Source: Antedon mediterranea
Lineage: Eukaryota > Animalia > Echinodermata
NCBI RefSeq assembly: GCF_964355755.1
Contig: NC_092672.1
Location: forward strand, 29,704,437 to 29,768,436
Length of the DNA: 64,000 nt
Reading direction: 5' to 3'
Below, piece after piece: positions 5,357 through 58,071 of the stretch. Numbering within the stretch: the first letter of the stretch is position 1; every line of letters starts with the position of its first letter. Both the position numbers and the translations under genes were made by a program. The notes under the pieces are model-generated. The model worked only from the letters and a program-made list of their open reading frames with translations. It was not told the origin of the DNA and made no database searches.

Positions 5357-8300
5357 TTATGTCAACAAAGTTACTCTTCTATCTGAACAGTCTCTCATTA
5401 TTTCACTAATTACCCAATCGGATAAATAGCAATCATGCATGTTAAGCAACCTTAGTTTAGGTAACATATTTAATAAAGAACGCAGTAAAGTAACATCAAT
5501 GTCACTAAGATTATTACAACTGATATTGAAGTGACCTAATTTCAACTTAACTCCATTATTAGAACACTCTCTACTCAGAGCATTCATTACAGCACCTGAT
5601 AGATTACAATTATGCATTTCAAGTGTAAGCGCATCATCATCATCACCATAATCATCATCATCATCATTATCAATCATACTCAATAGATAACACAGTGATA
5701 TACCATCAATGTCACTAAGATTATTACCACTGATATTGAAGTGATATAATTTCAACCTTACTCCATTATTAGAACACTCTCTACTCATAGCATTCATTAC
5801 AGCACCTGATAGATTACAATCATGCATGTCAAGTGTACTATTCCTACTCATCATACTCAATAGATAACAGAGTGATGCACTATCAATGTCACTAAGATTA
5901 TTACCACTGATATTGAAGTGATCTAATTGCAACTTACCTCCTTTATCAGAACACTTTCTACTCATAGCATTCATTACAGCACCTGATAGATTACAATCAT
6001 GCATGTCAAGTGTACTCTCCAAAGTCATCATACTCAATAGATAACACAGTGATGTACAATCAATGTCACTAAGATTATTACCACTGATATTGAAGTGATA
6101 TAATTGCAACCTAACTCCTTTATCAGAACACTCTCTACTCACAGCATTCATTACAGCACCTGATAGATTACAATCATGAAAGTCAAATATACGCAGCCCA
6201 GTCATCATACTCAATAGATAACACAGTGATGTACCATCAATGTCACTAAGATTATTACCACTGATATTGAAGTATTCTAATTCCAACTTAACTCCTTTAT
6301 CAGAACACTCTCTACTCACAGCATTCATTACAGCACCTGATAGATTACAATCATGAAAGTCAAATATACGCAGCCCAGTCATCATACTCAATAGATAACA
6401 CAGTGATGTACCATCAATGTCACTAAGATTATTACCACTGATATTGAAGTATTCTAATTCCAACTTAACTCTTTTATCAGAACACTCTCTACTCACAGCA
6501 TTCATTACAGCACCTGATAGATTACAACCATGCAAGTCAAGTATACTCAGCCTAGTCATCATACTCAATAGATAACACAGTAATGTACCATCAATGTCAC
6601 TAAGATTATTACCACTGATATTGAAGTGATATAATTTCAACCTTACTCCATTATTAGAACACTCTCTACTCATAGCATTCATTACAGCACCTGATAGATT
6701 ACAATCATGAAAGTCAAATATACGCAGCCCAGTCATCATACTCAATAGATAACACAGTGATGTACCATCAATGTCACTAAGATTATTACCACTGATATTG
6801 AAGTGATTTAATTCCAACTCAACTCCATTATTAAAACACTCTCTACTCACAGCATTCATTACAGCACCGGATAGCCTACAATCATGCATGTCAAGTGTAA
6901 GGTTACACTGATCATACTTTAATATACATAGAATGTGTGTAAGAACCTTTCCTTTAGAATCAGATGATATTGTATTTAAAAAACTCCGAACATTGTTAGG
7001 CAGTGATATTTTATGAAATTTCCTCAGAATATTTATAAAATGTTTATCAACGTTTTCATCTTTGCTTACATGCTGAATGAACATTCTTAATGTATTTGAA
7101 ATATCTTCCAAATGTTCTTTTATTTCTAAATTTGTATTCGATATGTGATTAAGCAATGTTTGTTCAACATTATCCATATGGTGTTGTTTCACCAATTCTA
7201 AGTAATTATCAATAGATCGATATGCTGCCAAATCATTTGTAATCCAATGCTTTAAGAATGTTCCAGAATCAGCTCCAAGGAACCCAATGGCAAACTCTCT
7301 TGTTATTTTGAAATACTCACTTTCTCGTATTTCTTTCCATTCTTTTTCATCTAATGGCGCAAGTAATGGGTTTTTTACGCGAGTGCATATGTTTTCCATA
7401 GATTCACTCTCACATAGTTTGTATAAATAAAATCCCACCAACGACTCAACTATCAGTTTGTGTGGAGGCATATAATTTTTTTCGAAGCTAGACTTTGAAA
7501 TTGGTGCATCTTCATAAACAAACCCAAGTTTCAGGGCAGTATCAATCGTACTTTTGTCACCTGTAAGGTTTTTTTTGTTTATCGAAAGTTGATTTCTTTT
7601 TAAGCTTTGATACATACATCTCCCTAAACAAATCATAGCATTTACATACTCCTCTGGAGCATCATCAAATTTTGAAATAAAATTGTGTTGTTGTTTTTTA
7701 AAGAACTGATTTAAAATACTTCGAAACAGTTCTTCAAAAAGATCAGATTTATCGAGAGGAAGATTTTGGTTGTCCTCCCACATAACACAAATTGTTAGAA
7801 GTAACATTGGATTTCTGCACATGGAACGCAATTCTTCATGTTCCAAGTAATTGTAATTATACGACATATCAAATTCATAATCATATTCAACAATGCCAAG
7901 CTTTTTTCTAAGAGATTTCCCTAGGTCAGGTTTTTCAAAATGCATAAAGTAATTGTCAATATACTCTCCAATGTTCCTTTCTTTGAACCCTTTTACTCTT
8001 ATGTGTACATTGCACTCATTTATGAATGCATTTATATTTTCTGTTCGCGAGGTCAGTATCACTACACTATTTTTTAATTTTTCCTTTCTGAAAATACGAA
8101 TAAAATCTTTATTCTCAAATCTTAATTCATCTAATCCATCTAATAACAACACAATTTTATTATCATGGTTTGTAAAGAATTCTTTGATGAATGAAGAACC
8201 TTTTTCAATCTTTGTTTCAAATTCTTCCATATCGAGTTGCTTTATCATGAGATCTAATATTGTTTGATCTTTCTCTAAATCTCGTATATTCAACAGAAAT

Positions 8301-8622
8301 ACAATTTTACCTTCAAATATATCAAATGATTTATCTGTACCGCAATTGTATGCTATGTACCTTAATAGTGTAGTTTTACCTATACCGCCTTCGCCATCTA
8401 TTAGAACTTTGCACGCAGGTGTGGATTTGATGGTAGCCAATACATCTTTTAATGTTGTTGGCTGACTCTCTTTCGTTTTTGTATTTCCTTTAAGTAGGTC
8501 CATCTCAGTGAATAGTTCAGAAATATCGACTTGGTACAATGTATTCAATGTTGCTGGTGTAAACTTCTTGGCATTTTGCAGAAATGCCTCTTGTTTACTT
8601 AGTAGATATACTTCTATCTTTT
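5357..8622 (-). CDS. NLR-A large terminal exon: NACHT + helical domains + LRR array
   Basis: ORF 5357-8695. The true exon starts after the polypyrimidine tract/CAG at 8624-8623; the ORF's hydrophobic N-terminus is intron sequence. Confidence 0.93.
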
Positions 8623-10656
8623 CTGTGAGATAAAATAAAAAGTAAATGAAATAAATGACACAATAAAAGACATAAATACTAATTAAAAAAAACATACAAT
8701 ATTTATGAAAAATTACGTTTACGCCATAAACACAATGTATGTTTTTTTAAAATTAAAATTAGAGTTTTGCAGTCCGCAAGAACGCAAAATAGACAAAATG
8801 AAACGAAACCTTAGGCTAATTGTTTGCAGTGGGAAGGGTAGGTTTAAATGTATAAATATAACATCAATGAAAAAGAAATTATTAGTCAGTCTTTGACAAG
8901 TTACTGTACATTAAATGAATTTTGTGTCAAAATTCAGCAAGATCTAGAAAACTATATTAAGAATCTAAATGTAACCAAAATAAGAGGTTGCCGTTTTTAG
9001 GCATTATTTGCCGACAAGCATCAACAATTAAGTCAAAGTTGTCATAAGAAATATACATACTATGGTTTTCATCTTGAGGTGTTAAAGGAAAATGTGTATA
9101 GAACAAAATACATCAAGTTAGAGTTGTAATGAAGGAGAGAATTATAGGTAAATTCCAACATTGTATCACAGTATTTCTTTTGAGAAATAGGAATTTAATA
9201 GATTAAATACGTTTTAATAGTTATACAGAATTATTTAGGTTAACCTGGTAAAAGTTTCCTACAGTACATGATAGGTTAGGATTCTATAAATAAATCCTAT
9301 AGCAATAATATAAATATTTTAATATTTAATACGTTTTAATAGTTATACAGCCATACAGAAATATTCTAGGTTAAACCTGGTAAAAATGCCTAGCATTGTT
9401 TGGATTTAATAGCCCGTCAATAGGTTTCTCTGAGATCCTATAGGAATTAAGTACTGTAATATATAGGTTGATATTTGACTTCTTAGATTACTGTCAATTA
9501 AAATTAGTATTCAGATTATTAAATGGTTAGTAGTGTTTGTCTATTTACCTTCTCTTCGGCGTTTGGAACTATCATCATCACGCTCGGTATTTCCTAAAAA
9601 ACACAAAACAAAACCGTAGTATTATTAATTGCGATGGTTTGAAGATTAAAATTTAAAAATATGACTAGTTTTCTATGCATACACTGCAGGTTGGTTCATT
9701 TCTGTTAATGTAAAATTGGCTATAAAAGCCGGATGATAAAATACATCTTTTTGTGTTGCTTAAGTATTCTGATAAACTGATTCTGATTCATTCTGATGAA
9801 ATTATTGATAAATGATAAAAACATTCATTAACATCAATTCATATTTACCTCCTGGTCGTCGATTAAAGCATGATGCTTTACCATCGTTAAGTTCTTCCTC
9901 ACCTCGTTCTATACAAATTAAACAAAAATATTAATACCCCAAAAATAAATTGTATTTTATTACATACGGGTAATACTAGCCAAAAAAAAAGTAATGTTTA
10001 AAATACAAATTAAAAACAATCTTGTGTAATAATACATTTATATACACATTGATTTGAGAAACTGTTAGTTGAAGGGTTTTAATTAATTTTATAAAAATGA
10101 CAAGTTTTAATAGTTGAAATAACTTGCTATACATACCACTATGATGTACAATTTTTCGAAGAAGATCATGAAATACATCTTTCTTGTCTGGTTCTTTCGA
10201 TAAACGTTGGCCAGTTTCCAATCTGAATGTTACATCCCAAATGGTGGTGTAATCGTACATTGCCAGATTATAATGAGAGATGACCCTCTTTAACGCATCT
10301 GGTCCAACATTTCGCAAATCTTTAAACATTTGTTTTCTTTCTGATGATATTTTTTCTTCACCGGTATTTTCAATATTATTGTCTCTAATATACTGGACTA
10401 CACAATCTTCAGCTTTCTTTAATTTACATAATTTGGAAATATCTAATAATAGGTTAACATTATTAGGTGCGATAACGCCAGTGTCTTCGAGATGATTAAA
10501 TAGATCATTTCCAATGGCATTTGGTTCTGTAAGGTCTCCGATAGGTATGTGGTCGAATAAGATAAACTTCAACCAACGCAACCTATTACCGCAAAAGAAT
10601 GTGCTGAGATCAGACTTCAATTTGGGGAACTCTGGATTAGTTTCAGACGCTGCCAT
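5357..10656 (-). CDS. NLR-A: spliced NLR gene (tandem DED - linker - NACHT - LRR), apparently intact, ~1296 aa; coding exons 10656-10137, 9908-9849, 9593-9549, 8622-5357
   Basis: GT/AG sites found at each boundary and all introns are phase 1, so the exons join in frame (520+60+45+3266 nt). NACHT motifs: Walker A GEGGIGKT, Walker B VLLLDGLDE, sensor ILTSR, NPMLL, PPHKLIVE. C-terminal LRRs. Confidence 0.88.
5460..6900 (-). repeat. Coding tandem repeat, 177-bp unit (two LRRs, 59 aa) x8 plus terminal half unit
   Basis: Period 177 seen directly (e.g. 6181 vs 6358); invariant core ISGNNLSDID..SLCYLLSM and HDCNLSGAVMNA. Confidence 0.95.
9061..9093 (-). pseudogene. NLR-A 33-nt micro-exon with mutated acceptor (AC instead of AG), probably skipped
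   Basis: Nearly identical to the copy-B exon 47542-47574, which has CAG|...|GTATGT; here the acceptor reads CAC. Confidence 0.55.
9549..9593 (-). CDS. NLR-A 45-nt linker micro-exon (GNTERDDDSSKRRRE)
   Basis: AG/GT flanked, phase 1-1; homolog in copy B at 48950-49009. Confidence 0.75.
9849..9908 (-). CDS. NLR-A 60-nt linker micro-exon (ERGEEELNDGKASCFNRRPG)
   Basis: AG/GT flanked, phase 1-1, open; homologous 60-nt exon in copy B at 50230-50289. Confidence 0.75.
10137..10656 (-). CDS. NLR-A first coding exon: death-effector domain plus a second DED-like unit
   Basis: LRWLKFILFDHIP..DLFNHLEDTGVI..NVNLLLDI..VVQY fits the DED pattern; followed by ISSERKQMF..IWDVTFRLE, resembling a second DED. 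Acceptor AG at 10675-10674, donor GTATGT at 10136. Confidence 0.75.
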
Positions 10657-12968: not shown

Positions 12969-15932
12969 CAGTATGACTCGATATGAAAATAAATCGAGTC
13001 CTACACATTCCATAGATTGCTTTGAAAGTGACGAGGCTGGTTTATGCAAATATTTCACTCCAACACAACTTAATGAGCTACAGGCGCAAATTGATAACAA
13101 TGGTATCTTTACAACGTTACACATGAATGCACGTAGTTGATGTACTTGGTTTCTCGGAAACCTGGATAAATAAGAACACGCCAATTGACTTATTAAATAT
13201 CAATGGATACAATATGTACACTTGTAATAGAGAAGGTAGAGTCGGTGGTGGAGTTTGTCTATATTTAAAAGAACAAATCAACACCGTAACACGTGATGAT
13301 TTTGTATTTAATGATAACTCCATTGATTCACTTTTTCTAGAAATAATAAACACAAACGGCAAAAATACTATTGTAGGTATGTTGTATCGACCACCAAATT
13401 CAAACGTCAACTCATTTAACTCTGATCTGGAAGAAATCTTACATAAACTTAATCGCGAAAACAAAAACTGCTATATCTTAGGAGATTTTAATCAAGACTT
13501 ATTAAAATATGACATTCAAAAAACAACACAGGAATTCACAAACATTATTTACTCAACATCTTTTAATCCATTAATCAACTTACCCACGAGAATAACATCG
13601 TCTTCTGCTACAATTTTAGATAATATTATTACAAATGATGATAACATTTCGCATTGTGGAGTAATAGTCACTGACATTACCGATCATCTACCCATTTTCA
13701 TGACAACACACTTGTCATTAAATACTAACACACAAGCTCCAATTACAAAACAAAAAATAATTAATGATACAACATTAAATAACTTGCTTATTGCTATTTC
13801 TAATGAGGATTGGGGTGAACTATATTTATGCACAGATACCAATACATCATATAACCTATTTATTAAAAAACTATCCAATCTCATAGATAATAACATACCT
13901 ACAAAAAGTAATAAGCCAAATGGTAATACAAAGAAAAAACCATGGATCACAACAGGAATTTTGATTTCAATAAAAAAGAAAAATAAACTTTATAAAAAAT
14001 ACCTTAAAAACCCAACACAATTATTAAAAAATATATATAAAAAGTACAAAAATAAATTAACTCATTTAATTAGAATTCGGAAAAAACAATATTATTCCAA
14101 AAAACTGGATGCAGCTCGACACGATTCAAAGCAAACATGGAAAGTTTTAAATGAAGTTCTAAATAGAAAAAAATCGAGTGTTAAGCCAAATGAGGTAATT
14201 AACCATAGTAATAAAACTTTGGTATGTGATCCAAAAGGTATGTCTGACGCTTTTAATGACTTCTTCTCCAACATTGGAAATGAATTAGCAAACAAAATAC
14301 CAAATGTAAACAATTCTGACTTTAAACAATATATGAAAGAGAGTCAATCCCAATCCATATTTTTCAATCCTACGAATGAAGAAGAGGTCATTGAAATAGT
14401 TAGTCAAATCAAAAATTCAAATTCAGAAGGTGTTGATAACTTAAGTAATCGCATTCTAAAACATATTATTGCTGCTGTGGCATCTCCTCTTGTACATATC
14501 TTTAACCTCTCTCTTGAGACAGGCATGGTCCCTGATAGTATGAAAGTAGCTAGAGTAGTTCCAATTTTTAAATCTGGCAATAAAAGTGACGTCAGTAATT
14601 ATAGGCCGATCTCTATTCTGCCTACCGCTTCAAAAATTCTTGAAAAAATTGTTCAAATTAGAGTAAATAATTATATCACAAAGTTTAACATCCTTAATAA
14701 TGCACAATATGGTTTCAGAAAAAACAGTTCTACTTTTATGGCCGTTATAGATCTGGTTGAACGAATAACCGATGCGCTTGATAAGAAAAAAAATACCATC
14801 GGAATATTTATTGATTTGTCAAAAGCGTTTGACACCATCAACCATGATATACTTCTTAAAAAATTGGAACACTATGGCATAAGAGGCACGGCCCTTAAAT
14901 GGTTTAGAAACTATATTAGTGGAAGGAAACAATTTACGTCTATTGATAACACAAGTTCGTGTTTGATGGATATAAATTGCGGTGTACCACAGGGTTCAAT
15001 TCTGGGGCCTCTACTTTTTATTTTGTACATTAACGATGTATTTAATTGCTCAAACTCGTTATCTTTTGTTTTATTTGCTGACGACACAAACATATCTGCA
15101 TCTCACGAAAACTTGGATACGCTCATAGAACTAGTTAATGGTGAACTAAAAAATGTTTCGGATTGGTTCATGTGCAATAAACTATCAATCAACGTTAAAA
15201 AAACTAATTACATAATTTTCCGCAATCAGCGAAATCCAAGTAATTTAGAGAATGTAAATATTTATGTCAACAATAAAAGAATAGATAGAGTTAAATCGAC
15301 TAAATTCCTTGGAGTACATATTGATGAATTTCTCACATATAAGAACCACATCAATGTTACAGCTAGGAAAATATCTCGATATGTAGGCATACTATATAAA
15401 GTAAGACATTTTTTACCAACCTATGCTCTCTGGACAATATACAAATCACTCATTGAACCAGTATTAAATTATTGCAACATAATATGGTGTAGCACATTTC
15501 CAAGTTATTTAGATGAGTTATTTAAACTCCAGAAAAGGGCATTACGAGCTATAACATGGTCAAAGTTTAATGATTCAATGACTGAATGTTTCTATAAATT
15601 TAAACTTCTTAAAATTGCGGATATCAATAAGTACCAAATTGGGCTTTTCATGTATAATGTTACTACTAATCAGGACGTGCGTTTTTCATCGCTCTTTATT
15701 AAAAATGGTTCTTACCATAATTATAATACAAGATCTAAAGACAAAATGAGACTCAGAAAACGTAATCGTACTTCTACTAGTTTTACTGTGTCATGTGTGG
15801 GACCCAAATTGTGGAATGACTTGAATTACGAACTACAAAGTACCAAATCAATATATATATTTAAATCATTGTTTAAAGAACATTTATTATCATTTTACAA
15901 ATAATTTTAAAAATTATACTTGTTGCAGGATT

Positions 15933-15975
<43 letters not shown>

Positions 15976-16153
15976 TATTATTTATGTTTTAGTTTTTTAG
16001 GCTAGTTAGGGACATAGGGGGACACAACTAATCAAGCTCTTTTGAGTTTTTATGTGTTTCCTTTTCATCTTTTTTATGTTCTCATATATTGTTGTTGTAT
16101 ATTTTCATGATAGAGGATGAATAAAGAATATTTGAATTTGAATTTGAATTTGA
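12969..16153 (+). mobile_element. 5'-truncated non-LTR retrotransposon, L2/CR1 group (Crack/Daphne-like), copy A only
   Basis: APE endonuclease (SETW, YRPP, GDFN, LDNI, TDH) and RT (YRPISIL, QYGFR, DLSKAFD, GVPQGSILGP, FADDT); poly-T 3' UTR, AATAAA and (TTTGAA)n tail; absent at the orthologous site ~52110-52150. Confidence 0.93.
13127..15904 (+). CDS. LINE ORF2 (endonuclease-reverse transcriptase); N-terminus broken by a small deletion/frameshift near 13137
   Basis: 925-aa ORF; the upstream frame from 12973 encodes CKYF...TLHMNARS, the start of the APE domain, then shifts. Confidence 0.9.
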   Translation: MHVVDVLGFSETWINKNTPIDLLNINGYNMYTCNREGRVGGGVCLYLKEQINTVTRDDFVFNDNSIDSLFLEIINTNGKNTIVGMLYRPPNSNVNSFNSDLEEILHKLNRENKNCYILGDFNQDLLKYDIQKTTQEFTNIIYSTSFNPLINLPTRITSSSATILDNIITNDDNISHCGVIVTDITDHLPIFMTTHLSLNTNTQAPITKQKIINDTTLNNLLIAISNEDWGELYLCTDTNTSYNLFIKKLSNLIDNNIPTKSNKPNGNTKKKPWITTGILISIKKKNKLYKKYLKNPTQLLKNIYKKYKNKLTHLIRIRKKQYYSKKLDAARHDSKQTWKVLNEVLNRKKSSVKPNEVINHSNKTLVCDPKGMSDAFNDFFSNIGNELANKIPNVNNSDFKQYMKESQSQSIFFNPTNEEEVIEIVSQIKNSNSEGVDNLSNRILKHIIAAVASPLVHIFNLSLETGMVPDSMKVARVVPIFKSGNKSDVSNYRPISILPTASKILEKIVQIRVNNYITKFNILNNAQYGFRKNSSTFMAVIDLVERITDALDKKKNTIGIFIDLSKAFDTINHDILLKKLEHYGIRGTALKWFRNYISGRKQFTSIDNTSSCLMDINCGVPQGSILGPLLFILYINDVFNCSNSLSFVLFADDTNISASHENLDTLIELVNGELKNVSDWFMCNKLSINVKKTNYIIFRNQRNPSNLENVNIYVNNKRIDRVKSTKFLGVHIDEFLTYKNHINVTARKISRYVGILYKVRHFLPTYALWTIYKSLIEPVLNYCNIIWCSTFPSYLDELFKLQKRALRAITWSKFNDSMTECFYKFKLLKIADINKYQIGLFMYNVTTNQDVRFSSLFIKNGSYHNYNTRSKDKMRLRKRNRTSTSFTVSCVGPKLWNDLNYELQSTKSIYIFKSLFKEHLLSFYK

Positions 16154-19569: not shown

Positions 19570-20445
19570 ACTGTTCAAGCGGACCCAATTTAGCACCAGA
19601 GGAGCACAGTGATATAAAATAGATATAGGCCTAAGTCACTAATTTTAATATTGATTGAATTGAAATATATATTTATACTGGGTAACCTCTTCAGTCAATG
19701 ACTGGTCTCCCAGAGGGCCCAGTTGGTGATCAGTGGCTGTAATGTTTCATATGTTAATACACTGTGCTCAAGTCGACCCAATTTGCCGTCAGTGGAGCAC
19801 AGTGATATAAAATAGAAACAAGTCACTGAATTTTAATATCTTTTCGTATGTTAATACACTGTGCTAAGTGGAACCAATTTGTCGCCAGGGGAGCACAGTG
19901 ATATAAAATAGAAACAATTCACTGAATTTTAATATCTTTTCGTATGTTAATACACTATGCTCACGTGGAACCAATTTGGCGCCAGTGAGCATAGTGATAT
20001 AAAATAGAAAAAAGTCAGTCACTAAATTTTAATATCTTTTCGTATGTTAATACACTGTGCTAAAGTAGCCCAATTTGGCACTAGTGGAGCACAGTGATAT
20101 AACATAGAAATAAAGTCAATAAATTTTAATATGTTAAGCATGCATGGAATATTTATTGAAAGCTTAGCTTAAAATATTGTTTAGTATTTATTATGCATTT
20201 TTTCTTCAAGGAGAAATAATAATAATTTTTAATTTGTGAAACATTGTGCTCAAGTGGACCCAAATTGGCACCAGTGGAGCACAGTAATATAAATTAGAAA
20301 TAAGTCACTGAATGTTAATATCTTTTCATATGTTAATACACTGTGCTCCAGTGGACCCGCCCAATTAAGTTGAATATATATTCGTGTATGTTAATACACT
20401 GTGCTCCCGTGGATCAAATTTGGCGCCAGTGGTGTAGCACAGCTA
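19570..20445. repeat. ~97-bp minisatellite with internal hairpin (CACTGTGCTC-N~26-GAGCACAGTG), about 7 degenerate units
   Basis: Unit starts at 19753, 19850, 19946, 20046. Confidence 0.85.
19650..19740 (-). mobile_element. Very short retroposon 3' end with (TTCAA)-type tail, copy A only
   Basis: ~90-bp insert absent from copy B (~54170), with a short stem-loop and tail. Confidence 0.5.
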
Positions 20446-38425: not shown

Positions 38426-39989
38426 AATAAACTACGTCATATCTGAACCAGTACATCTTCATTCTACGTATCGGATCGAGCGTGCATTAAATGACTCGCA
38501 CAGAAATTGGACATAATTATATACAACTTTCGGTCCGTTACAGTGTTTACGAGACACGTCTCAAACAGTTTAATTATTTGCATGTTACGAGGAAAGATTT
38601 CAGATGTTTAAAATTGATTTATTAGATAAGATAAACAAAAATAACTCAACAGGTATAACACTGTTTCATTCGGAGTCGCCAGAAATTACCATTCTCATTA
38701 AAAGTCAATTAAGTCATTGCACCAATCTTTGAAATAAATACAATTAACAGGCAACTTTTGTTTCATTTCCTTTATTCAGAACTAGAAGAAACTAAAAAAA
38801 AACCTAAAAAAATGTAAACGGATACTTATCTACATTCTACAGTTCATTATAATTACAAAATAAAAAAATTGATAAAAAATGTATATTCCTTAAGCTTGGT
38901 TCTCACTAGAAACAACAAGATAACAAATATCAATTTTGCATCCCCTCTCCCCCGCCTCTTACGAGAAATTGGATTAACTGCCGAGATGAACGTAAAACAA
39001 CAGAAAATGTGTTATAACGTCTACGGTACCGTGCTTACGTAATCGGTTGCCACAACGCAATGTTATATGTTATTGCGTCAATACTTTGAATATTTCGTTG
39101 CATCTTAGTTGGAACCAATCTTTCAAACTACTAATAGTTTACTCCTATACTACTGAAGTCAATAATTGACAGGTTATTATTGACGGTTTATTTATTTTAA
39201 ATACCAATACAGTATACTACTTTACTACGCTGAAGGTCTCTTGTACATTATTTATAGACAATAGTTTATTACTGGTATTTAAGATTAATATTGTAATCCA
39301 TTACATAACCATATGTTAAACTAAGGTTTATTTATTTCAAATACCATTATAGTATTACTTTAACTAATCTGAAAGTTCATTGTAAATTATTTATAGACCA
39401 ATAGAAATACTACTGGTATTTCAGATTAATATTGGAATCATTACTTAACATATGTTAAACTAATGGTTTATTTATTTAAAAAAATAAACTTTACTACTTA
39501 AAGTTCTTCTGTTCAAATATTAATATTAGTCTAATATTGTCAGTGTTCTAATCCAAGTAAACATCAAGAGTAAATACAAGATGACTTCAATACTATTTGT
39601 GTACTATCACCACCTCTATGCAAATGAGTAAATATTAAATGCAATTATAATGCAATGAAAACAGTTAATTAATTTCTAACACTTTGTACAATATTGAAAG
39701 AAAATATTAAAGCTCAAATCACGCTTGCAGTAGGTCCTACTTATAAAAAACCATTTGGTGTGAGACTTTTTACATCAATTTGTTCTGAATCCATTTTGCA
39801 CACATTAAGATGGCAGAACGTTTGAGTTGGAGAGGAATAATCAATTAACCCAGTAGATTACAGTCAATGTTTTTTTCATCTGCCAGTGATATTGTGTGTC
39901 TTTATGCCAAAAAAGTTACTCCTCTATTTGAACAGTCTCTCCTTATTTCACTAATTACCCCATCTGGTAAATAGCAATCATGCATGTTA

Positions 39990-42900
39990 AGCAACTTTAG
40001 TTTAGGTAACATATTTAATAAAGAACTCAGTAAAGTACCATCAATATCACTGAGATTATTACCACTGATATTGGCATTATGTAAATTCAACTTAACTCCT
40101 TTAGCAGAAAACTCTATAATCATAGCATTCATTACAGCACCTGCTAGATTACAATCATGCAAGTCAAGTGTAAGTGCATCATCATCATCACCATTATCAT
40201 TATCATCATCATCATCATCAACAACATCAATCATACTAAATAGATAACACAGTGATGTACCATCAATGTCACTAAGATTATTACCACTGATATAGAAGTG
40301 ATTTAATCTCAACTTAACTCCTTTAGCAGAAAACTCTATAATCATAGCATTCATTACAGCACCTGCTAGATTACAATCATGCAAGTCAAGTGTAAGTGCA
40401 TCATCATCATCACCATTATCATTATCATCATCATCATCATCAACATCATCAATCATACTAAATAGATAACACAGTGATGTACCATCAATGTCACTAAGAT
40501 TATTACCACTGATATAGAAGTTATCTAATACCCCTTTCACACCAAAAGCAAAACTCCGGAGACACCCCGGAGTTGACGCCCCGCTGTTTGGTGTGAAAGG
40601 TAAAATCAAGCAACTCCGGAGTTTAAAACTGCGGGGTTGAACAGCTGAACATTCTCCGGAGAGCGAACTGCGGGGACACCCCGGTGTTTTGGTGTGAAAT
40701 ACCCCTTTCACACCAAAACTCCGGAGTGTCTCCGGAGACACCCCGGGGTTTATGACCATTCAAAACGTCGAGAAACTCCGGAGATACCCCTTTCACACCA
40801 ACCTAGCAACTCCGGGGTTTATAAAATAAAATTGTAAATGTCGCCCTCTATTTTGTTTGTTTACATAGCGACGATCATTAGAATCATTTTAATTAATAAT
40901 ATGTTTAATTTAATAATTACTTTCAGAAGTCTCAGAAGTAATATAATGTTTTATTGATACTACTTATTATTTTTGAACCCGCTATATATGTTGTACAAAT
41001 ATTTAAAGTATTTTGAAATAAAACTAAAGCAATGAGTGATCGTGTGAGGATGACCTTTTGACCCGAAACACTCCGGAGTTTGATGTTGGTACCTTTCACA
41101 CCAAAACACCGGGGTGTCCCCGCAGTTCGCTCTCCGGAGAATGTTCAGCTGTTCAACACCGCAGTTTTAAACTCCCGAGTTGCTTGATTTTACCTTTCAC
41201 ACCAAACAGCGGGGCGTCAACTCCGGGGTGTCTCCGGGGTGTCTCCGGAGTGTCTCCGGAGTTTTGCTTTTGGTGTGAAAGGGGTATTCGGTACCAACAT
41301 CAAACTCCGGAGTGTTTCGGGTCAAAAGGTCATCCTCACACGATCACTCATTGCTTTAGTTTTATTTCAAAACACTTTAAATATTTATACAAAATATATA
41401 GCGGGTTTAAAAAATAATAAGTAGTATCAAATAAAACATTATATTACTTCTGAGACTTTTGAAAGTAATTATTAATTAAAATTATTCTAATGATCGTCGC
41501 TATGTAAACAACAAAAAATAGAGGGCGACATATACAATTTTATTTTATTAACCCCGGTGTTGCTAGGTTGGTGTGAAAGGGGTATCTCCGGAGTTTCTCG
41601 ACGTTTTGAATGGTCATAAACCCCGGGGTGTCTCCGGAGACACTCCGGAGTTTTGGTGTGAAAGGGGTATAATTCCAATTGAACTCCTTTAATAGAACAC
41701 TCTCTATTCATAGCATTAATTACAGCACCTGATAGATTACAATCATGCATGTCAAGTGTACTACCCCAATTCATCATGCTCAATAGATAACCCAGTGATG
41801 TACCATCAATGTCACTAAGATTATTACCACTGATATTGAAGTGATCTAATACCAACATAACTCCTTTATTAGAACACTCTCTATTCATAGCATTCATTAC
41901 AGCACCTGATAGATTACAGTCATGCATGTCAAGTGTACTATCCCAAGTCATTATACTCAATAGATAACACAGTGATGTACCATCAATGTCACTAAGATTA
42001 TTACCACTGATATTGAAGTGATCTAATGCCAACTGAACTCCTTTATTAGGACACTCTATACTCACAGCATTCATTACAGCACCTGATAGATTACAATCAT
42101 GCATGTCAAGTGTACTATCCCAAGTCATTATACTCAATGATGAACCATCAATGGATGCACCATCAATGTCACTAAGATTATTACCACTGATATTGAAGTG
42201 ATCTGATTCCAACTGAACTTCTTTATTAGAACACTCTCTATTCATAGATTTCATTACAGCACCTGATAGATTACAATCATGCATGTCAAGTGTACGCAGC
42301 CTAGTCATCATACTCAATAGATAACACAGTGAGGCACCATCAATGTCACTAAGATTATTACCACTGATATTGAAGTGATCTAATGTCAACTGAACTCCTT
42401 TATTAGAACACTCTCTAATCATAGCATTCATTACAGCACCTGATAGATTACAATCATGCATGTCAAGTGTATCCAGCAAAGTCATCATACTCAATAGATA
42501 ACACAGTGATGCACCATCAATGTCACTAAGATTATTACCACTGATATAGAAGTTATCTAATTCCAATTGAACTCCTTTAATAGAACACTCTCTATTCATA
42601 GCATTAATTACAGCACCTGATAGATTACAATCATGCATGTCAAGTGTACTTTGCCAAGTCATTATACTCAATAGATAACACAGTGAGGCACCATCAATGT
42701 CACTAAGATTATTACCACTGATATTGAAGTGATCTAATGTCAACTGAACTCCTTTATTAGAACACTCTCTAATCATAGCATTAATTACAGCACCTGATAG
42801 ATTACAATCATGCATGTCAAGTGTACTTTGCCAAGTCATTATACTCAATAGATAACACAGTGAGGCACCATCAATGTCACTAAGATTATTACCACTGATA

Positions 42901-43535
42901 TTGAAGTGATCTAATGTCAACTGAACTCCTTTATTAGAACACTCTCTAATCATAGCATTCATTACAGCACCTGATAGATTACAATCATGCATGTCAAGTG
43001 TATCCAGCAAAGTCATCATACTCAATAGATAACACAGTGATGCACCATCAATGTCACTAAGATTATTACCACTGATATAGAAGTTATCTAATTCCAATTG
43101 AACTCCTTTAATAGAACACTCTCTATTCATAGCATTAATTACAGCACCTGATAGATTACAATCATGCATGTCAAGTGTACTCCGCCTAGTCATCCTACTC
43201 AATAGATAACACAGTGAGGCACCATCAATGTCACTAAGATTATTACCACTGATATTGAAGTGATCTAATGTCAACATAACTCTTTTATTAGAACACTCTC
43301 TAGTCATAGCATTCATTACAGTACCTGATAGATTACAATCATGCATGTCAAGTTTACTCAGCGAAGTCATCATACTCAATAGATAACACAGTGATGTACC
43401 ATCAATGTAACTAAGATTATTACCACTGATATTGAAGTGATTTAATCTCAACTTAACTCCATTATAAGAACACTCTCTACTCATAGCATTCATTACAGCA
43501 CCTGATAGATTACAATCATGCATGTCAAGTTTAAG
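39990..43535 (-). repeat. NLR-B LRR array: 13 cassettes plus terminal half, split by a MITE; basic unit 177 bp, the two acidic-loop units have a 222-bp period
   Basis: Unit count from ORFs 41487-45398 and 39902-40759; removing the element plus one TAA restores QLEL-DNFYISGNN. Confidence 0.93.
40529..41669. mobile_element. PIF/Harbinger-type MITE (TAA TSD) containing a second, inverted copy of itself (40700-41286)
   Basis: TIR TACCCCTTTCACACCAAAA...TTTTGGTGTGAAAGGGGTA; TAA at 40526-40528 and 41670-41672; the empty-site sequence is given by sister LRR units (ttatctaattccaattg). Confidence 0.9.
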
Positions 43536-45514
43536 GTGGTTACACTGATCAAACGTTAAAATACATAGAATGTGTGTAAGAACCTTTCCTTTAGAATCAG
43601 ATGATATTGTATTTAAAAAACTCCACAAATTGTTAGTCAACGGTATTTTATGAAATTCCCTCAGAATATTTATAAAATGTTTATCAACGTTTTCATCTTT
43701 GCTTACATGCTGAATGAACATTCTTAATGTATTTGAAATATCTTCCAAATGTTCTTTTATTTCTAAATTTGTATTCGATATGTGATTAAGCAATGTTTGT
43801 TCAACATTATCCATATGATGTTTTTTCACTAATGCTAAGTATTTATCAAAAGATCGATATGCTGCCAAATCATTTGTAATCCAATGCTTTAAGAATGTTC
43901 CAGCATCAGCTCCAAGGAACCCAATGGCAAATTCTCTTGTTATTTTGAAATACTCACTTTCTCGTATTTCTTTCCATTCCTTTTCATCTAATGGCGCAAG
44001 TAATGGGTTTTCCATCGATTCACTCTCACATAGTTTGTATAAATAAAATCCCACCAATGACTCAACTATCAATTTGTGTGGAGGCATATAATTCTCTTCA
44101 AAGCCAGACTTTGAAATTGGTGCATCTTCATAAACGAACCCAAGTTTCAGGGAAATATCAATCGTATTTTTGTCACCTGTAAGGTTTTTCTTGTTTATCG
44201 AAAGTTGATTTCTTGTTAAGTTACGATACATGCATTTTCCTAAACAAATCATAGCATTTACATACTCCTCTGGAGCATCATCAAATTTTGAAATAAAATG
44301 GTGTTGTTGTTGTTTTTTAATGAACTGATTTAAAATACTTCGAAACAGTTCTTTAAAAAGATCAGATTTATCAAGAGGAAGATTTTGGCTGTCCTCCCAC
44401 ATTATACAAATTGTGACAAGTAACATTGGATTTTTGGACATATCGCGTATTTCTTGATGTTTTCTATATACATCATAGAGTTCACCAATTAGTGATTCTC
44501 CCAGGGCAGGTTTGCCAAAATGCTTAAAATGATTGTCAATATATTTTGTAATGTTTCTTTCGTTGAACCCTTTTACTCTTACGTGTACATTACACTCATT
44601 AATGAATGCACTTATGTTTTCTGTTCGCGAGGTCAGTATCACTACACTATTCTTTAATGTTTCCCCTCTGAATAGACGAATAAAATCTTCATTCTGAAAT
44701 CGTAATTCATCGAATCCATCTAGCAACAATACAATGTTGCTATCATATTTTATTATGAATTTTTGGATTACTTTCGAATCTTCTCCAAGATCAGTTTCCA
44801 AATCAAATTCTTTCATATTTAGTTTATCTACTATAAGATCAAAGATTCCCTTCCCTTCCTCCAAATCTCTTATATTTAACAGAAATACAATTTTACCTTC
44901 AAACACATCAAATGATTTATCTGTACCTGCATTGTATGCTATGTGCCTTAATAGTGTAGTTTTACCTATACCACCTTCACCATCTATAAGGACTTTGCAC
45001 GCATGTGTGGATTTGATGGTAGTTAACACATCTTGTAATGTTGTTGACTCACTCTCTTTTGTGTTTTTATTTCCTTTGAGTAGTTCCAACTCTGTGAATA
45101 GTTCAGAAATATCGACTTGGTGTGATTCATTCCATGTTGCTGGTGTAAACGTCTTGGCATTTTGCAGAAATGTCTGCTGTTTACTTAGTAGATATACTTT
45201 TATCTTTTCTGTAGGATAAAATGAAAGGTAAATAAATAGGTGACACAACAAATGACATAATAAAAGATGATGACGACGACGACGACAACAATGATGATGG
45301 AACACATTAATTGTGTTTACGCCATAAACATACACCCGTATGTGTCTCTTACTGTATATTGAAATTAAAATTAATATTTTGCCTTGAGACGAAAACAATA
45401 GTAAAATAAATCATGAAATGAAAGTTTTGTTTGTTGAAACTAAATTCATTGTTAGTGGAAAAGTTATTACGGTTTCTTTTATTAAGAAGACGTATCAAAC
45501 ACACTAATGAGGAA

Positions 45515-50221: not shown

Positions 50222-52672
50222 ACCTTTACCTTCTGGTCGTCTTTTAGAACCTGATGCTTTATTATCGTCATATTCATCTTTCCTACGTTCTATAAAAATG
50301 TTTTGAATGTTTAAAAACAAATTATAATATAATACATACGGGTAAAACTGCTTTTAAAATACTACATTATAAATATTATGTTAAAATATATTTATTTTCA
50401 AAATTAATGTAACAAACTGTTAGTTGTGATGGTTTGAAGATTATAATTTATAAAGTAATAATAAAAAAATTAAATATCACATGTTTTATACCTTTGTGAC
50501 TTCCACTGCGATGTGGCACATTATCATGATGTACAATTTGTCGAAAAAGATCATCAAATACATCTTTCTTGTCTGGTTCTTTCTATAAAGGTTGTCCAGT
50601 TTCCAATCTGAATGTTACATCCCAAATGTTGGTGTAGTTATACCTTGCCAGATCATAGTGAGCAATAACCCTCTTTAACGCATCTGGATCAACATTTCGC
50701 AGCTTTTTAAACATAAATTTTCGACGCAGTGATATCTTTTCTTCTGTATTTTCAGCGTTATCATTTCTAATATACTGTACTACAAGATCTTCAGCCTTCT
50801 TTAATTCACATAATTTGGTAATCTCCAATAAAAGACTAACATTATTAGGTGTAATTTTACCAGTGGCATGTAATTCATTAAAAAAATCATTTCCAACGAC
50901 ATTCTGTTTTGTGAGGTCTTCTATATATGTAAATGCTCGAATAAGCAGAATTTTAACCATAGCAACCGGTCACCGTCGAAGTGTCTACCAAGATCAGACT
51001 TCAAATTGGTGAACTTTTGATTAGTTTCAAACTCTGCCATTTAAGCCTTTTCTGTCTGAAAAACCAAATTATCAAGAATGTCTAGATATTTATATGAATT
51101 GTTAGCCGATGATTGGTGACTATAAAAAAATCAGTCTATATTATAACGATCAGCATACTATTATTAATAATTATATCATAACATTTAAAATTACTACACA
51201 AACAGTGATAGTAATTACAATAAAGATATAAAAAAACAAAGATGTGGACTATAAATAATTAGTGGCATATATTGGTAATAATAGTTCGGTTATAATTATG
51301 TTTAACAAAATTGTTTGTTGATCCATTGTTGGCCAAGAAACTAGACAAGTCATGGTATAACGAAGAGGTGATAATATAATTGTACATAAAAAATATATAT
51401 ATAATATTTTTTCTTTTGTCTTTTTTTTAAAAGAAATTTGTCAAAATGAGTTTTCTTTGATGCGGACGGGGTCCGCGTTTGGGTGAGGGTGGGTTAGGCT
51501 CTTAGGGGGTCCATGGCGGTTCTATCTATCTGCTCCCGAACATCCCAATAATGTTCTGTTTTTGTAAAAAAAACAAAGACTCCGTTTACCAATCTAGCAA
51601 AATAATAAGTGGCCTATTCCGAATTAGTAATTTGTACAAACGAATTACAGTAACTGTACTTATTTTAGGCTTTTGGGCTTTCGTACTGGATAGACCTTTC
51701 AGTATACCAGCACTTTTAAACTTTCGTTCATACGTTATTATATGAAATTTATAGAGTATTATATTCGTAAAGAAAATGGAAAATTTTTCGACTAAAACAT
51801 TACGTTTTTGTATCATACCATGCTGCTATACATTCAATTTCGAGCAATTGTCAAAATAAATATTTAAAAAATTGCATTTGTTACAAAACACTTTGACCTT
51901 GCATGTTCTTATAAATTCGCATTGCGTCATCATAAATATTCAGAATCTATTTTGGGAAGCAGCCTGATCCAAGACAATCTACAAGTTGCTTTGGTAACCT
52001 ACTACGCAGTCATGAAAATATACCAAATCGGGAAAATTATAAAAAGTAAAAAATTACAGTCTTTTGCTTTTAGTAATACATCTAATTTTTGCAAAACTTT
52101 TCCGTTACATTTATGAAGTGCACTTTTAGTCACACAATCTTTTTTACATTGATATTTATAGACCCAATCTTCACTTTCATACCATGTTACCAAGTTGATC
52201 GATTAGTGTGTGGCCGAGTTGACGCAGGGCTGAGCTAATTTGGGCCGAATTGACATGGGGCCGAGTTGTTTAGGGCTGAATTTACGCGAGGCCAAGTCGA
52301 GATAGTTTAGGGCCGACTTGGATTGAATTCATTTGAAGTATTAATGCATTTATACAGATCATTTGGGTCCTTCTAAATACCTAAGAACTACTGTACCATC
52401 AAAACTAAAACCCACCAAGACGGGTTTCACGAAACCTAAGACCATGAAAACTAAGACCCACTCCTAAGGTAGCGGGACGATTCGGCCCTGAGACGAATCG
52501 TTATTATTCTTTGATTGTTTTTTAGGGTGGGTTACTATTAGAAGGGGAGTGGAGTGGGGGTGGGGTTAACTATTGGAGTAGTGGGTTACTATTAATAATC
52601 TTAAATTAGGCACCTGAAAATAGTAACCCACCCCCAACTTTTCCGGTCAGCAACTCATAGCAAAATAATAAA

Positions 52673-54089: not shown

Positions 54090-55310
54090 AACTGTTCAAG
54101 CGGACCCAATTTAGCACCAGAGGAGCACAGTGATATAAAATAGATATAGGCCTAAGTCACTAATTTTAATATCGTTTCGTATGTTAATACAATGTGCTCC
54201 AGTGGACCCAATTTGGCGTCAGTGGAGCACAGTGATATAAATAGAAACAAGTCACTGGATTTTAATATCTTTTCGTATGTTAATACACTGTGCTAAGTGG
54301 AACCAATTTGTCGCCAGGGGAGCACAGTGATATAAAATAGAAACAATTCACTGAATTTTAATATCTTTTCGTATGTTAATACACTATGCTCACGTGGAAC
54401 CAATTTGGCGCCAGTGAGCACAGTGATATAAAATAGAAAAAAGTCAGTCACTAAATTTTAGGCCTAATATCTTTTCGTATGTTAATACACTGTGCTCAAG
54501 AAGCTTAAAAGATATATCACATCCAAGTATTAATTTTTATTATATTACATTTTATGATAATAATTTTAATGATGAGTAACAAGAAGAAGACGATTCAATT
54601 CTTTATTTATACCAAAATTGTTTTTTGTTGTTGTTATTTTACTTATTTAGTTTAACCCATGTTAGGCCTATGTAAATTTTTTATATTGTTATTTCTTAAT
54701 TTTTTTCATTTATTTATTTATTTATTTATTTTCTTTTTCCGTGTTGTTTTTATCTAATCTTTGTTTAGGCATGTCTGTCACAAGCTTTTTGCTTTTTTGA
54801 TCATGCCTTCTTCAATCATATTACCTTTCTTTACACCATTTTGTTGACTGTTTTATTTTGAAGAAAATAAATGTTACTTTGAATTGAATTGAATTGAATT
54901 GAATTGAATTGAATTGAATTTGGCACTAGTGGAGCACAGTGATATAACATAGAAATAAAGTCAATAAATTTTAATATTTTTTCGTATGTTAAGCATGCAT
55001 GAAATATTTATTGAAAGCTTAGCTTAAAATATTGTTTAGTATTTATTATGCATTTTTTCTTCAAGGAGAAATAATAATAATTTTTAATTTGTGAAACATT
55101 GTGCTCAAGTGGACCAAAATTGGCACCAGTGGAGCACAGTAATATAAATTAGAAATAAGTCACTGAACGTTAATATCTTTTCATATGTTAATACACTGTG
55201 CTCCAGTGGACCCGCCCAATTAAGTTGACTATATATTTGTGTATTTGTGTATGTTAATACACTGTGCTCCCGTGGATTCAATTTGGCGCCAGTGGTGTAG
55301 CACAGCGAAA
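54090..55310. repeat. Copy-B version of the ~97-bp hairpin minisatellite, interrupted by a LINE 3' end
   Basis: Same units as 19570-20445. Confidence 0.85.
54500..54920 (+). mobile_element. 5'-truncated LINE 3' UTR with (GAATT)n tail, copy B only
   Basis: T-rich UTR, GGCATG..CAAGCTTTTTGCTT..CATGCC stem-loop, AATAAA, microsatellite tail; architecture like 15905-16153. Confidence 0.7.
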
Positions 55311-55814: not shown

Positions 55815-58071
55815 CTTCCCTGGTTTAAATTAACCTGTATTCAAAATAGAATGACTACAATATATAAGTGTCACTTCCTCCTACGACGCGAGTTAGTGTA
55901 TAACTTTGCTTATGAATACAGCGGTAGTTTTTCCAAACTTTTTAAAAATGTAAAACCTTTGGCTCGAATCACACCTCCATGCTCGAATAAACAAATACTT
56001 TATTTGTACAAGACCTTGATTATTTTGACGGAAATTGCGCCTGGTGAACTTCATAAGTAAATCATGTCGTCATTAGACCCCTCAATGACCGTGTTCGTAC
56101 GGCGATTGAAATACACGTTTATTTGGTTTTTACCCTTGGGGTAAAACCCATACGACGTTCGTACGAATAAACAAAGTACCGGTAAGCTGACACGAAACCA
56201 ATTAAGATCGGAATTCTTAGGTCAAAAAGCGCCCTCTGTGCGTCGACCCATATCAATTGACATGGCGTGTTGACAAATTCAACTGGATATTGCATGTCGT
56301 TTCGCGCGCGAATCGTTCAATTATTATTTTTCAATCGACAACCAGACCTATATATTTATAATACATCGAATACAATTTACTTTTTAAATAAATAATGATC
56401 GAAAATCCTGCTAACGTATGTTGTTTGTTGACCACGTGTGTTTATCGTGCGAGCCGAACTATTGTTGTGGAAATTCCATTTAATGTACAAGCACTGTACC
56501 CCTCTTGTAAAAATCACCACGTGTATTTATCGTGCGAGCCGAACTATTGTTGTGGAAATTCCATTTAATGTACACGCACTGTACCCCTCTTGTAAAAATC
56601 ACCACGTGTATTTATCGTGCGAGCCGAACTATTGTTGTGAAAATTCCATTTAATGTACACGCACTGTACCCCTCTTGTAAAAATCACCACGTGTATTCAT
56701 CGTGCGAGCCGAACTATTGTTGTAAAAATTCCATTTAACACGCACTGTACCCCTCTTATCGTGCGAGCCGAACGGTTGATGTGGTAATTCACAGACACCA
56801 GGCTACCACAATACAGAACTCCCTGACGTTACATGTACATTATAAGCCACCGATTCGCAAGTTCAGGTCACCGGAAAAAAACCAACGAAAAAATGAATTT
56901 TGTCAATACAAAATGAATTTTGTGTTGACAAAATGAATTTTGTATTGACAAAATTAATTATGTGTAGACAAAATTGTAATATTTCGACAAAATTAGCAAT
57001 GTCCCAAACGGCGCCCCGTACTTCCCTGGTTTAAATTAACCTGTATTCAAAATAGAATGACTACAATATATAAGTGTCACTTCCTCCTACGACGCGAGTT
57101 AGTGTATAACTTTGCTTATGAATACAGCGGTAGTTTTTCCAAACTTTTTAAAAATGTAAAACCTTTGGCTCGAATCACACCTCCATGCTCGAATAAACAA
57201 ATACTTTATTTGTACAAGACCTTGATTATTTTGACGGAAATTGCGCCTGGTGAACTTCATAAGTAAATCATGTCGTCATTAGACCCCTCAATGACCGTGT
57301 TCGTACGGCGATTGAAATACACGTTTATTTGGTTTTTACCCTTGGGGTAAAACCCATACGACGTTCGTACGAATAAACAAAGTACCGGTAAGCTGACACG
57401 AAACCAATTAAGATCGGAATTCTTAGGTCAAAAAGCGCCCTCTGTGCGTCGACCCATATCAATTGACATGGCGTGTTGACAAATTCAACTGGATATTGCA
57501 TGTCGTTTCGCGCGCGAATCGTTCAATTATTATTTTTCAATCGACAACCAGACCTATATATTTATAATACATCGAATACAATTTACTTTTTAAATAAATA
57601 ATGATCGAAAACCCTGCTAACGTATGTTGTTTGTTGACCACGTGTGTTTATCGTGCGAGCCGAACTATTGTTGTGGAAATTCCATTTAATGTACAAGCAC
57701 TGTACCCCTCTTGTAAAAATCACCACGTGTATTTATCGTGCGAGCCGAACTATTGTTGTGGAAATTCCATTTAATGTACACGCACTGTACCCCTCTTGTA
57801 AAAATCACCACGTGTATTTATCGTGCGAGCCGAACTATTGTTGTGAAAATTCCATTTAATGTACACGCACTGTACCCCTCTTGTAAAAATCACCACGTGT
57901 ATTCATCGTGCGAGCCGAACTATTGTTGTAAAAATTCCATTTAACACGCACTGTACCCCTCTTATCGTGCGAGCCGAACGGTTGATGTGGTAATTCACAG
58001 ACACCAGGCTACCACAATACAGAACTCCCTGACGTTACATGTACATTATAAGCCACCGATTCGCAAGTTCA
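55815..58071 (+). repeat. Direct duplication of ~1050 bp (55815-56865 = 57021-58071, offset 1206) separated by a 155-bp transposon-end-like spacer
   Basis: Identical spurious ORFs at offset 1206 (56438/57644, 56532/57738). Confidence 0.92.

What the first reader, a model, noticed from the sequence alone, without database searches (positions are those of the whole stretch)
5460..6900. NLR sensor built from near-identical 177-bp LRR cassettes with focused hypervariable positions: a candidate repeat-shuffling receptor diversification system
Seen: within one exon the LRR domain is a DNA-level tandem array whose scaffold (HDCNLSGAVMNA, ISGNNLSDID, SLCYLLSM) is almost invariant at the DNA level. 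Variation clusters in two short windows: TGLRIFDF/TRLSILDL/TLESTLDM/SRNSTLDM and ELELNH/RLKLYH/KLELEY/RLQLYH/KLQLDH. Half-cassettes recur in new combinations (LRIFDF is joined to RLKLYH, KLELEY and RLQLYH). Known: the x positions of LxxLxL form the concave ligand-binding face, and highly conserved internal repeats drive specificity change in fungal HET-E-type NLRs. Inference: this animal NLR family generates new specificities by unequal crossover or conversion between cassettes, in the germline and possibly somatically.
Basis: partly seen in the sequence, partly recalled or inferred. Interest (0 to 1): 0.82.

Follow-up and report, generated by a model that had tools for sequence, protein, structure and literature searches.

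The report
Shuffled repeat cassettes in crinoid NLR
A predicted immune-sensor gene, likely from a feather star, builds its sensing arm from near-identical 177-base cassettes that show swapped halves and differ mostly by amino-acid-changing letters, likely an inherited way of making new recognition surfaces like the one known in fungi.

Summary
An intact minus-strand gene (four predicted exons, 1296 aa) encodes predicted tandem DED, NACHT and LRR domains; its closest relatives are crinoid. The LRR lies in one open frame as 177-bp cassettes of two LRRs each (6.9 copies, 92% matches). Among six internal cassettes, differences cluster (p=0.004), are mosaic (p=0.0002) and are 32 amino-acid-changing against 2 silent (p=0.015). 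One correction: the variable sites are mostly in the loop before each predicted strand. The middle of the concave face is almost invariant here, although it varies in crinoid relatives. A broken paralogue 36 kb away has a similar array, with no significant signal. The trait is family-wide: 15 of 38 relatives have arrays at least 70% self-identical, one with about 50 cassettes. Best reading: germline concerted evolution plus diversifying selection, as in fungal HET-E-type NLRs. That principle is published, and reported for animals, including one sea-urchin LRR NLR; my ten searches found no crinoid study. Expression, ligand, allele-length variation and somatic shuffling are untested. The scan noted exon-based hypervariable LRR arrays on other DNA.

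The parts
10137..10656 (-). Coding exon 1 of gene A: predicted tandem death effector domains (173 aa)
   Evidence: Pfam DED E 2.5e-5, below the curated cut-off; model pLDDT 87; best PDB matches caspase-8/cFLIP tandem DED, TM 0.70, E 1.6e-3; GT donor
9849..9908 (-). Predicted 60-nt linker exon
   Evidence: The only GT-AG combination among the nearby sites tried; keeps the frame; no RNA support
9549..9593 (-). Predicted 45-nt linker exon
   Evidence: no RNA support
5357..8622 (-). Large last exon: NACHT, helical and winged-helix region, whole LRR array, stop
   Evidence: Open frame; AG acceptor at 8622
7943..8407 (-). NACHT domain with Walker A GEGGIGKT (from 8395), Walker B VLLLDGLDE (from 8152), sensor-1-like VILTSR (from 8062)
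   Evidence: Pfam NACHT E 1.5e-15; motifs located (motif names recalled)
5673..6896 (-). 177-bp tandem array; cassettes A1 6734-6910, A2 6557-6733, A3 6380-6556, A4 6203-6379, A5 6026-6202, A6 5849-6025, A7 5639-5848; each encodes two LRRs (59 aa; A7 70 aa)
6710..6733 (-). Variable window a (codons 1-8 of a cassette; shown for A2): loop before the strand and the strand of the first LRR
6626..6643 (-). Variable window b (codons 31-36; shown for A2): alternating variable and invariant codons before the strand of the second LRR
5632..5677 (-). GAT microsatellite encoding an acidic insertion (DNDDDDDYGDDDD) at the place of window a
   Evidence: pLDDT below 50 at model residues 987-993
5357..5638 (-). 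Diverged last cassette (A8) and C-terminal cap repeat
41670..45230 (-). Paralogue B: NACHT and a 10.5-copy array of the same 177-bp cassette; probable pseudogene
40529..41669 (.). About 1.14-kb non-coding element with terminal inverted repeats (TACCCCTTTCACACC) and a TTA duplication, inserted into the array of B
39902..40528 (-). Tail of the array of B: two cassettes with acidic insertions (222-bp period) and the cap
50521..51040 (-). DED exon of B, broken by a 2-base frameshift and a stop

Best explanation
This is an intact NLR gene, likely crinoid, whose LRR domain is a single-frame array of near-identical 177-bp cassettes with mosaic halves, likely kept alike and reshuffled by germline unequal crossing-over and gene conversion while selection likely favours amino-acid changes at a few exposed codons. 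Shown: the array, its mosaic pattern, the excess of replacement changes in gene A, block duplications, and the same array type across a large crinoid family. Inferred: misaligned cassettes recombine at meiosis, which homogenises the scaffold, joins a-halves and b-halves in new pairs and changes cassette number; the variable stripe (the loop before each strand plus x2/x3) would form or border the ligand surface. By analogy with NLRC4 and NOD2 (established knowledge, not tested here), binding would release the NACHT domain to oligomerise, and the predicted tandem DED would recruit a caspase-8/FADD-like partner.
For: Architecture: NOD2 and NLRC4 top, E 1e-25; ribonuclease inhibitor Z 27.9, rmsd 7.6, 451 aligned. 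Recombination in A: 41 of 91 informative site pairs incompatible, none within 30 bases, r with distance 0.72, p=0.0002; minimum 2 events. Selection in A: dN 0.103, dS 0.028; 32 replacement to 2 silent minimal changes over all 59 codons, p=0.023, p=0.015 after correcting for the mutation spectrum of non-coding paralogous DNA. Invariant codons alternate with variable ones in window b, which fits selection better than a mutation hot spot. Of the 40 variants listed at 8% or more in contigs of four runs, 38 are replacement when taken singly (p=0.005). Block duplication: B3/B6 differ by 3 bases, B4/B7 by 1; in P0121 (XP_071956244.1) 8 pairs at lag 5 and 6 pairs at lag 8 differ by at most one residue, none at lag 1. 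Concerted evolution: nearest cassette lies in the same gene for 113 of 137 cassettes of the highly self-similar genes, 164 of 262 overall.
Against: Paralogue B shows no significant recombination (p 0.10-0.40) or selection (31 to 5, p=0.20); pooled A+B p=0.06. Outside the windows omega is 1.3-1.7 (not different from 1), so relaxed constraint may contribute. Only six cassettes carry the test. Central concave positions are nearly invariant here. In TLRs the descending side, where these sites lie, is not the usual binding side (PMC4598782, passages). No RNA run, ligand or second allele was seen. Exchange between paralogues is not shown.
Confidence: 0.62

Rival explanations
1. Recent tandem amplification with relaxed selection: the array behaves like a coding minisatellite, and surface loops merely tolerate change without any benefit.
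For: The broken paralogue shows a similar pattern without significance; omega outside the windows is near 1; the a-loop tolerates an acidic microsatellite; repeats within proteins often evolve under strongly relaxed purifying selection together with positive selection (PMC5120217, abstract); sister genes P0007 and P0011 have diverged arrays (0.49, 0.52), so homogeneity comes and goes.
Against: Relaxation gives omega near 1, not 32 to 2 (p=0.015) or 38 to 2; single codons carry up to six residues with multi-base changes beside invariant codons; in relatives variation peaks at the exposed strand positions.
Confidence: 0.2
2. Selection is real, but the variable stripe is not a ligand-recognition surface: it changes to escape a pathogen inhibitor or to set partner choice among paralogous NLRs, while the invariant concave face binds one fixed ligand.
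For: x5, x7, x8 (D-H-D and N-S-G) are nearly invariant in both window genes and carry none of the 40 common variants in four runs; the variable residues sit in helix-to-strand loops.
Against: Relatives vary at x2, x3, x5, x7 and x8, the classic binding face; x3 is on the strand and varies here too. No binding data exist either way.
Confidence: 0.11
3. A somatic or programmed shuffling system diversifies the cassettes in immune cells.
For: Only the opportunity: near-identical in-frame cassettes in a large family. Somatic rearrangement has been suspected for fungal arrays (PMC12222747, passages).
Against: Germline processes explain every pattern seen; no recombinase gene among frames of 150 aa or more and no donor cassettes outside the two genes in the window; in the fungus somatic events were too rare to see in reads. 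Contigs cannot test it.
Confidence: 0.04
4. The array or its mosaic pattern is an assembly artefact.
For: Near-identical repeats are hard to assemble; no laid contig spans the array.
Against: Head-to-tail joins in runs of two samples; cassettes differ by 6-21 bases and stay in frame; similar arrays in annotated genes of two crinoid species.
Confidence: 0.03

Closest known systems
Fungal NLRs with high internal conservation (Podospora HET-E/HET-D HNWD family; also ANK and TPR types)
   Same: NACHT plus near-identical tandem repeats (80-100%), a few hypervariable codons under diversifying selection, shuffling by unequal crossing-over (PMC4986451, PMC12222747, PMC13449251; passages). The trait arose several times there; here the label changes 8 times on a 37-gene tree.
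   Different: The repeats here are LRRs, which fungal NLRs lack (PMC4986451); the unit is a two-repeat cassette; the effector is a predicted tandem DED; no genetics, ligand or allele series.
Animal NLRs reported with high internal conservation
   Same: PMC13449251 (section 12 read) finds such NLRs in animals, plants and bacteria; PMC12222747 cites one sea-urchin LRR NLR (Hibino 2006).
   Different: Those are survey-level or single mentions in what I could read; Hibino 2006 was not held. No crinoid term occurs in the main text of PMC13449251; its supplement could not be read.
Crinoid NACHT-LRR proteins of Anneissia japonica and Antedon mediterranea (NCBI 'uncharacterized' or 'NLRC4-like')
   Same: 72 of the 120 listed hits, 29-54% identity, E 1e-67 or better; same 57-60 aa cassette; the window genes nest among A. 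mediterranea proteins.
   Different: In self-similar relatives x5, x7, x8 vary (diversity 0.31-0.67 in five genes) while in the window genes they barely do (0.18, 0.06).
Vertebrate RI-like NLRs (NLRP3, NOD2, NLRC4)
   Same: Same fold; NLRP3 also uses two-LRR modules, of 171 bp (PMC6642158, passages).
   Different: There each module is a separate exon; here the modules lie in one frame and are 88-97% identical in DNA.
Zebrafish NLR-B30.2 family
   Same: Large animal NLR family shaped by gene conversion and positive selection (PMC4852459, passages).
   Different: Diversity there lies in B30.2, and the LRRs are described as not particularly variable.

Membership tests
Metazoan NLR (effector-NACHT-LRR) | NACHT domain with Walker A and B | tested here: met
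   Pfam NACHT 57.9 bits against cut-off 26.7; motifs intact
Metazoan NLR (effector-NACHT-LRR) | C-terminal RI-like LRR solenoid | tested here: met
Metazoan NLR (effector-NACHT-LRR) | N-terminal death-fold effector in the same protein | tested here: inconclusive
   Tandem DED-like fold (below Pfam cut-off, Foldseek E 1.6e-3); joined by a predicted splice model without RNA; some relatives carry DED and NACHT in one annotated protein
Metazoan NLR (effector-NACHT-LRR) | Ligand-triggered oligomerisation and signalling | not testable with these tools
   needs bench work
NLR with high internal conservation (HET-E-like mode) | Repeats 80-100% identical within a gene | tested here: met
   88-97% in DNA among A2-A7; mean protein identity 0.80 over 8 cassettes
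NLR with high internal conservation (HET-E-like mode) | A few hypervariable codons under diversifying selection | tested here: met
   Met in gene A (32 to 2, p=0.015) and in common variants of four runs (38 to 2); not significant in broken paralogue B
NLR with high internal conservation (HET-E-like mode) | Recombination among repeats within a gene | tested here: met
   p=0.0002 in A, not significant in B; block duplications
NLR with high internal conservation (HET-E-like mode) | Repeat exchange between paralogues | tested here: inconclusive
   0 of 44 silent differences between modal cassettes against 41 of 413 in NACHT (p=0.023), but flanking DNA differs by only 1.5-6.6%
NLR with high internal conservation (HET-E-like mode) | Repeat-number polymorphism among individuals | not testable with these tools
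   only contigs were available and none spans the array
NLR with high internal conservation (HET-E-like mode) | Variable sites on the interaction surface | tested here: inconclusive
HNWD family proper | WD40 repeats and HET effector domain | tested here: not met
   LRR and DED-like domains instead; it works like HET-E but is not a member
Somatically diversified LRR receptors (VLR type) | Somatic assembly from donor cassettes | not testable with these tools
   gene is complete in the assembly; no donor cassettes outside the two genes in the window; family features recalled

The most novel reading that the evidence does not exclude
Crinoids hold a genome-wide library of hundreds of interchangeable two-LRR cassettes in intronless DED-NLR arrays (up to about 50 cassettes, 100 LRRs, per gene). 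These are exchanged within and between genes fast enough to give each animal, perhaps each cell lineage, its own intracellular receptor repertoire, with this subfamily recognising ligands through an unusual side-loop surface.
Probability: 0.13. Interest if true: 0.85.

Novelty: new variant of a known kind. Interest (0 to 1): 0.52.

Why it matters
Repeat shuffling as a source of NLR specificity has been worked out mainly in fungi, whose NLRs lack LRRs. This locus gives DNA-level evidence for mosaic, positively selected LRR cassettes in an animal NLR. It belongs to a large crinoid family for which my searches found no study. The short single-frame array fits in one amplicon, so allele turnover, germline against somatic change, and cassette-by-cassette specificity can be tested directly. 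It does not by itself show a new mechanism or adaptive-like immunity.

Tried and rejected
No whole genome was held, so family size was not counted. Summed contig depth over the scaffold reached 127,000 in run X1, against 141-189 for its contigs identical to the gene; the tool states this is no copy number, so I read it only as 'many copies'. No RNA holder was listed. Run X5, guessed to be RNA, covers introns and showed no splice joint among those listed, so expression is open. X1 matches the window exactly in 6 of its 8 listed pieces and was not counted as independent. Conversion between the two paralogues was considered and left unproven, because non-coding paralogous DNA is as little diverged as the scaffold. 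A local mutation hot spot was rejected because changes favour codon positions 1 and 2 (13 of 16 in A) and skip alternate codons. A search of earlier findings by place gave nothing. The Atlas held no model of the N-terminal domain. No complex prediction was run: no partner is known. No codon site model (M7/M8 type) was run.

Full report
Observation. The array is there. Tandem Repeats Finder reports 5673-6896, period 177, 6.9 copies, 92% matches and no indels, inside a stop-free minus-strand frame of 1129 codons. Splitting the frame gives eight cassettes and a cap; each cassette is 59 aa (one is 70) and holds two LxxLxLxxNxL motifs, which I call a (LRIFDFHDCNL) and b (LYHFNISGNNL). The statistics below use the six internal cassettes A2-A7 and eight of the paralogue; I left out the diverged first and last cassettes, one with an indel (B8) and one cut by an insertion (B11). 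A2-A7 differ by 6-21 bases.

The gene. A 520-base exon at 10137-10656, two small exons and the large exon join through GT-AG introns into 3891 bases, 1296 aa, with one terminal stop. This is a prediction: no RNA run was listed and the one run guessed to be RNA covers introns. Pfam finds NACHT and LRR above cut-off and DED below it. The model of the large exon (mean pLDDT 83.9) matches NOD2 and NLRC4 best and its LRR part ribonuclease inhibitor (Z 27.9, rmsd 7.6, 451 aligned). The model of exon 1 (pLDDT 87) matches caspase-8/cFLIP tandem DED over its length (TM 0.70, E 1.6e-3; all 24 listed rows are DED proteins). The first 72 of 120 listed homologues are from the crinoids Anneissia japonica and Antedon mediterranea, with E-values falling from 1e-67 to 2e-21 at the first other hit. 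The window genes nest among A. mediterranea proteins, so the window is likely a feather star.

Surroundings. The gene lies in a tandem duplication with about 36 kb offset. The second copy has a 10.5-copy array but is broken three times: a 2-base frameshift and a stop in the DED exon and a 1.14-kb inverted-repeat element with a TTA duplication inside the array.

Recombination. In gene A, 41 of 91 pairs of informative sites fail the four-gamete test, none of them within 30 bases; incompatibility rises with distance (r 0.72, p=0.0002, 5000 permutations), with at least two events. In B the same tests are not significant (17 of 91, p 0.10-0.40); pooled p is 0.04-0.21. B does show a three-cassette block duplication (B3/B6 3 differences, B4/B7 1). 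The relative P0121 (XP_071956244.1, A. mediterranea) has one NACHT and about 50 cassettes; among the 37 regular 57-aa ones after residue 1690, near-identical pairs occur at lags 5 (8 pairs) and 8 (6 pairs) and never at lag 1. That is the pattern unequal crossing-over leaves, though this annotated model could itself hold assembly errors.

Selection. Within A, dN is 0.103 and dS 0.028; within B 0.080 and 0.056; the NACHT region between A and B has omega 0.39. Counting minimal changes per codon over all 59 codons gives 32 replacement to 2 silent in A (p=0.023; p=0.015 with a mutation spectrum taken from 227 non-coding differences), 31 to 5 in B (p=0.20), 55 to 8 pooled (p=0.06). In the windows A has 19 to 0, but those were chosen after the fact; outside them 13 to 2 (p=0.38). 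Contigs laid on one cassette (309, 142, 151 and 191 in runs X1, X5, X6, X8; two organisms) gave 40 variants at 8% or more; taken singly 38 change the residue (p=0.005). These variants are not independent events, overlap those of the window, and window a is poorly covered because diverged contigs stop aligning there.

Where the variable sites are. In the model each strand is x3-L4-x5, sometimes longer, as described for LRRs generally (PMC4598782, passages). In A, dN is 0.39 for the residues just before the motif, 0.36 for x2/x3, 0.02 for x5/x7/x8 and 0.06 elsewhere. So the stripe runs along the helix-to-strand (descending) loop and the strand's start, not the middle of the concave face; even the first 'L' of motif a takes six residues. 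The acidic microsatellite sits in the same loop. Relatives differ: in 22 of 38 genes selected for low within-gene diversity, peaks are at x2, x3, x5, x7, x8 of both repeats (0.36-0.69; cassette ends not covered), and five genes with exact 59-aa units agree.

Family. Of 72 crinoid hits, 38 have four or more cassettes and 15 of these have mean cassette identity of 0.70 or more. The nearest cassette is in the same gene for 113 of 137 cassettes of such genes. On a NACHT tree of 37 of the 40 genes (three left out for a missing or unmatched NACHT) the label changes 8 times, and the closest relatives of the window genes have diverged arrays. Homogeneous arrays therefore seem to arise or decay repeatedly. 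Exchange between paralogues is not shown: modal cassettes of A and B differ at 0 of 44 silent third positions against 41 of 413 in NACHT (p=0.023), but flanking DNA differs by only 1.5-6.6%.

Mechanism. Most likely (0.62): germline unequal crossing-over and conversion homogenise and reshuffle the cassettes, and selection keeps replacement variants at exposed codons, yielding new surfaces on an NLR that would signal through its tandem DED. The array, mosaicism, replacement excess and block duplications are shown; meiotic timing, ligand binding and signalling are inferred. Rivals: relaxed selection after amplification (0.2), selection on a non-ligand surface (0.11), somatic shuffling (0.04), artefact (0.03).

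What is known. The principle is published for fungal NLRs with high internal conservation (PMC4986451, passages; PMC12222747, passages; PMC13449251, passages, section 12 and the second part of section 13). The last states that such NLRs occur in animals; PMC12222747 cites one sea-urchin LRR NLR from Hibino 2006, which I could not read. Ten library searches (listings only, except the papers named) showed no study of crinoid NLR arrays; the library lacks most subscription papers and the supplement of PMC13449251 was unreadable, so a crinoid example may be in print. DED-bearing NLRs are known in echinoderms (PMC8913654, passages). Earlier notes of this scan describe exon-based hypervariable LRR arrays on other DNA; I did not test them.

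Verdict. Real, more than chance, and a good animal example of a known diversification mode, in an LRR-based, intronless form with an unusual position of the variable stripe. New variant of a known kind; interest 0.52.

Noticed in passing
window 13127-15904 (+), T-rich run 15937-15998: Intact 925-aa endonuclease plus reverse transcriptase frame (LINE-like; Pfam RVT_1 E 3.6e-37) upstream of gene A; the stretch is missing from the duplicated copy, so it is likely a recent insertion. The T run lies on the coding strand after the stop.
   Followed up: partly
window 40529-41669: Non-coding element with 15-base terminal inverted repeats, long internal inverted repeats and a TTA duplication (PIF/Harbinger-like, label recalled); it landed within variable window b of a cassette of paralogue B. 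Single event, no inference drawn.
   Followed up: partly
window 3758-25339 and 38420-62080: Tandem segmental duplication with about 36 kb offset; divergence is uneven: 1.5-6.6% in non-coding blocks, up to 33 of 90 residues different in part of the NACHT region, which may mean conversion from other family members or selection on NACHT.
   Followed up: partly
P0121 (XP_071956244.1): A 3951-aa Antedon mediterranea NLR model with about 50 two-LRR cassettes in higher-order blocks; about 100 LRRs would have to form a superhelix if the model is right.
   Followed up: partly
window 55815-58625: A 1051-base near-perfect direct duplication (55815-56865 and 57021-58071) with 85-bp tandem units and an inverted copy at 58070-58625; possible transposon remnant or assembly feature.
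   Followed up: no
window 19745-20132 and 54096-54500: 96-bp tandem arrays of four copies in both halves of the duplication.
   Followed up: no
window 5632-5677, 40177-40234, 40399-40456: GAT microsatellites coding acidic loops near the end of both arrays; duplicated as a 222-bp unit in paralogue B.
   Followed up: partly
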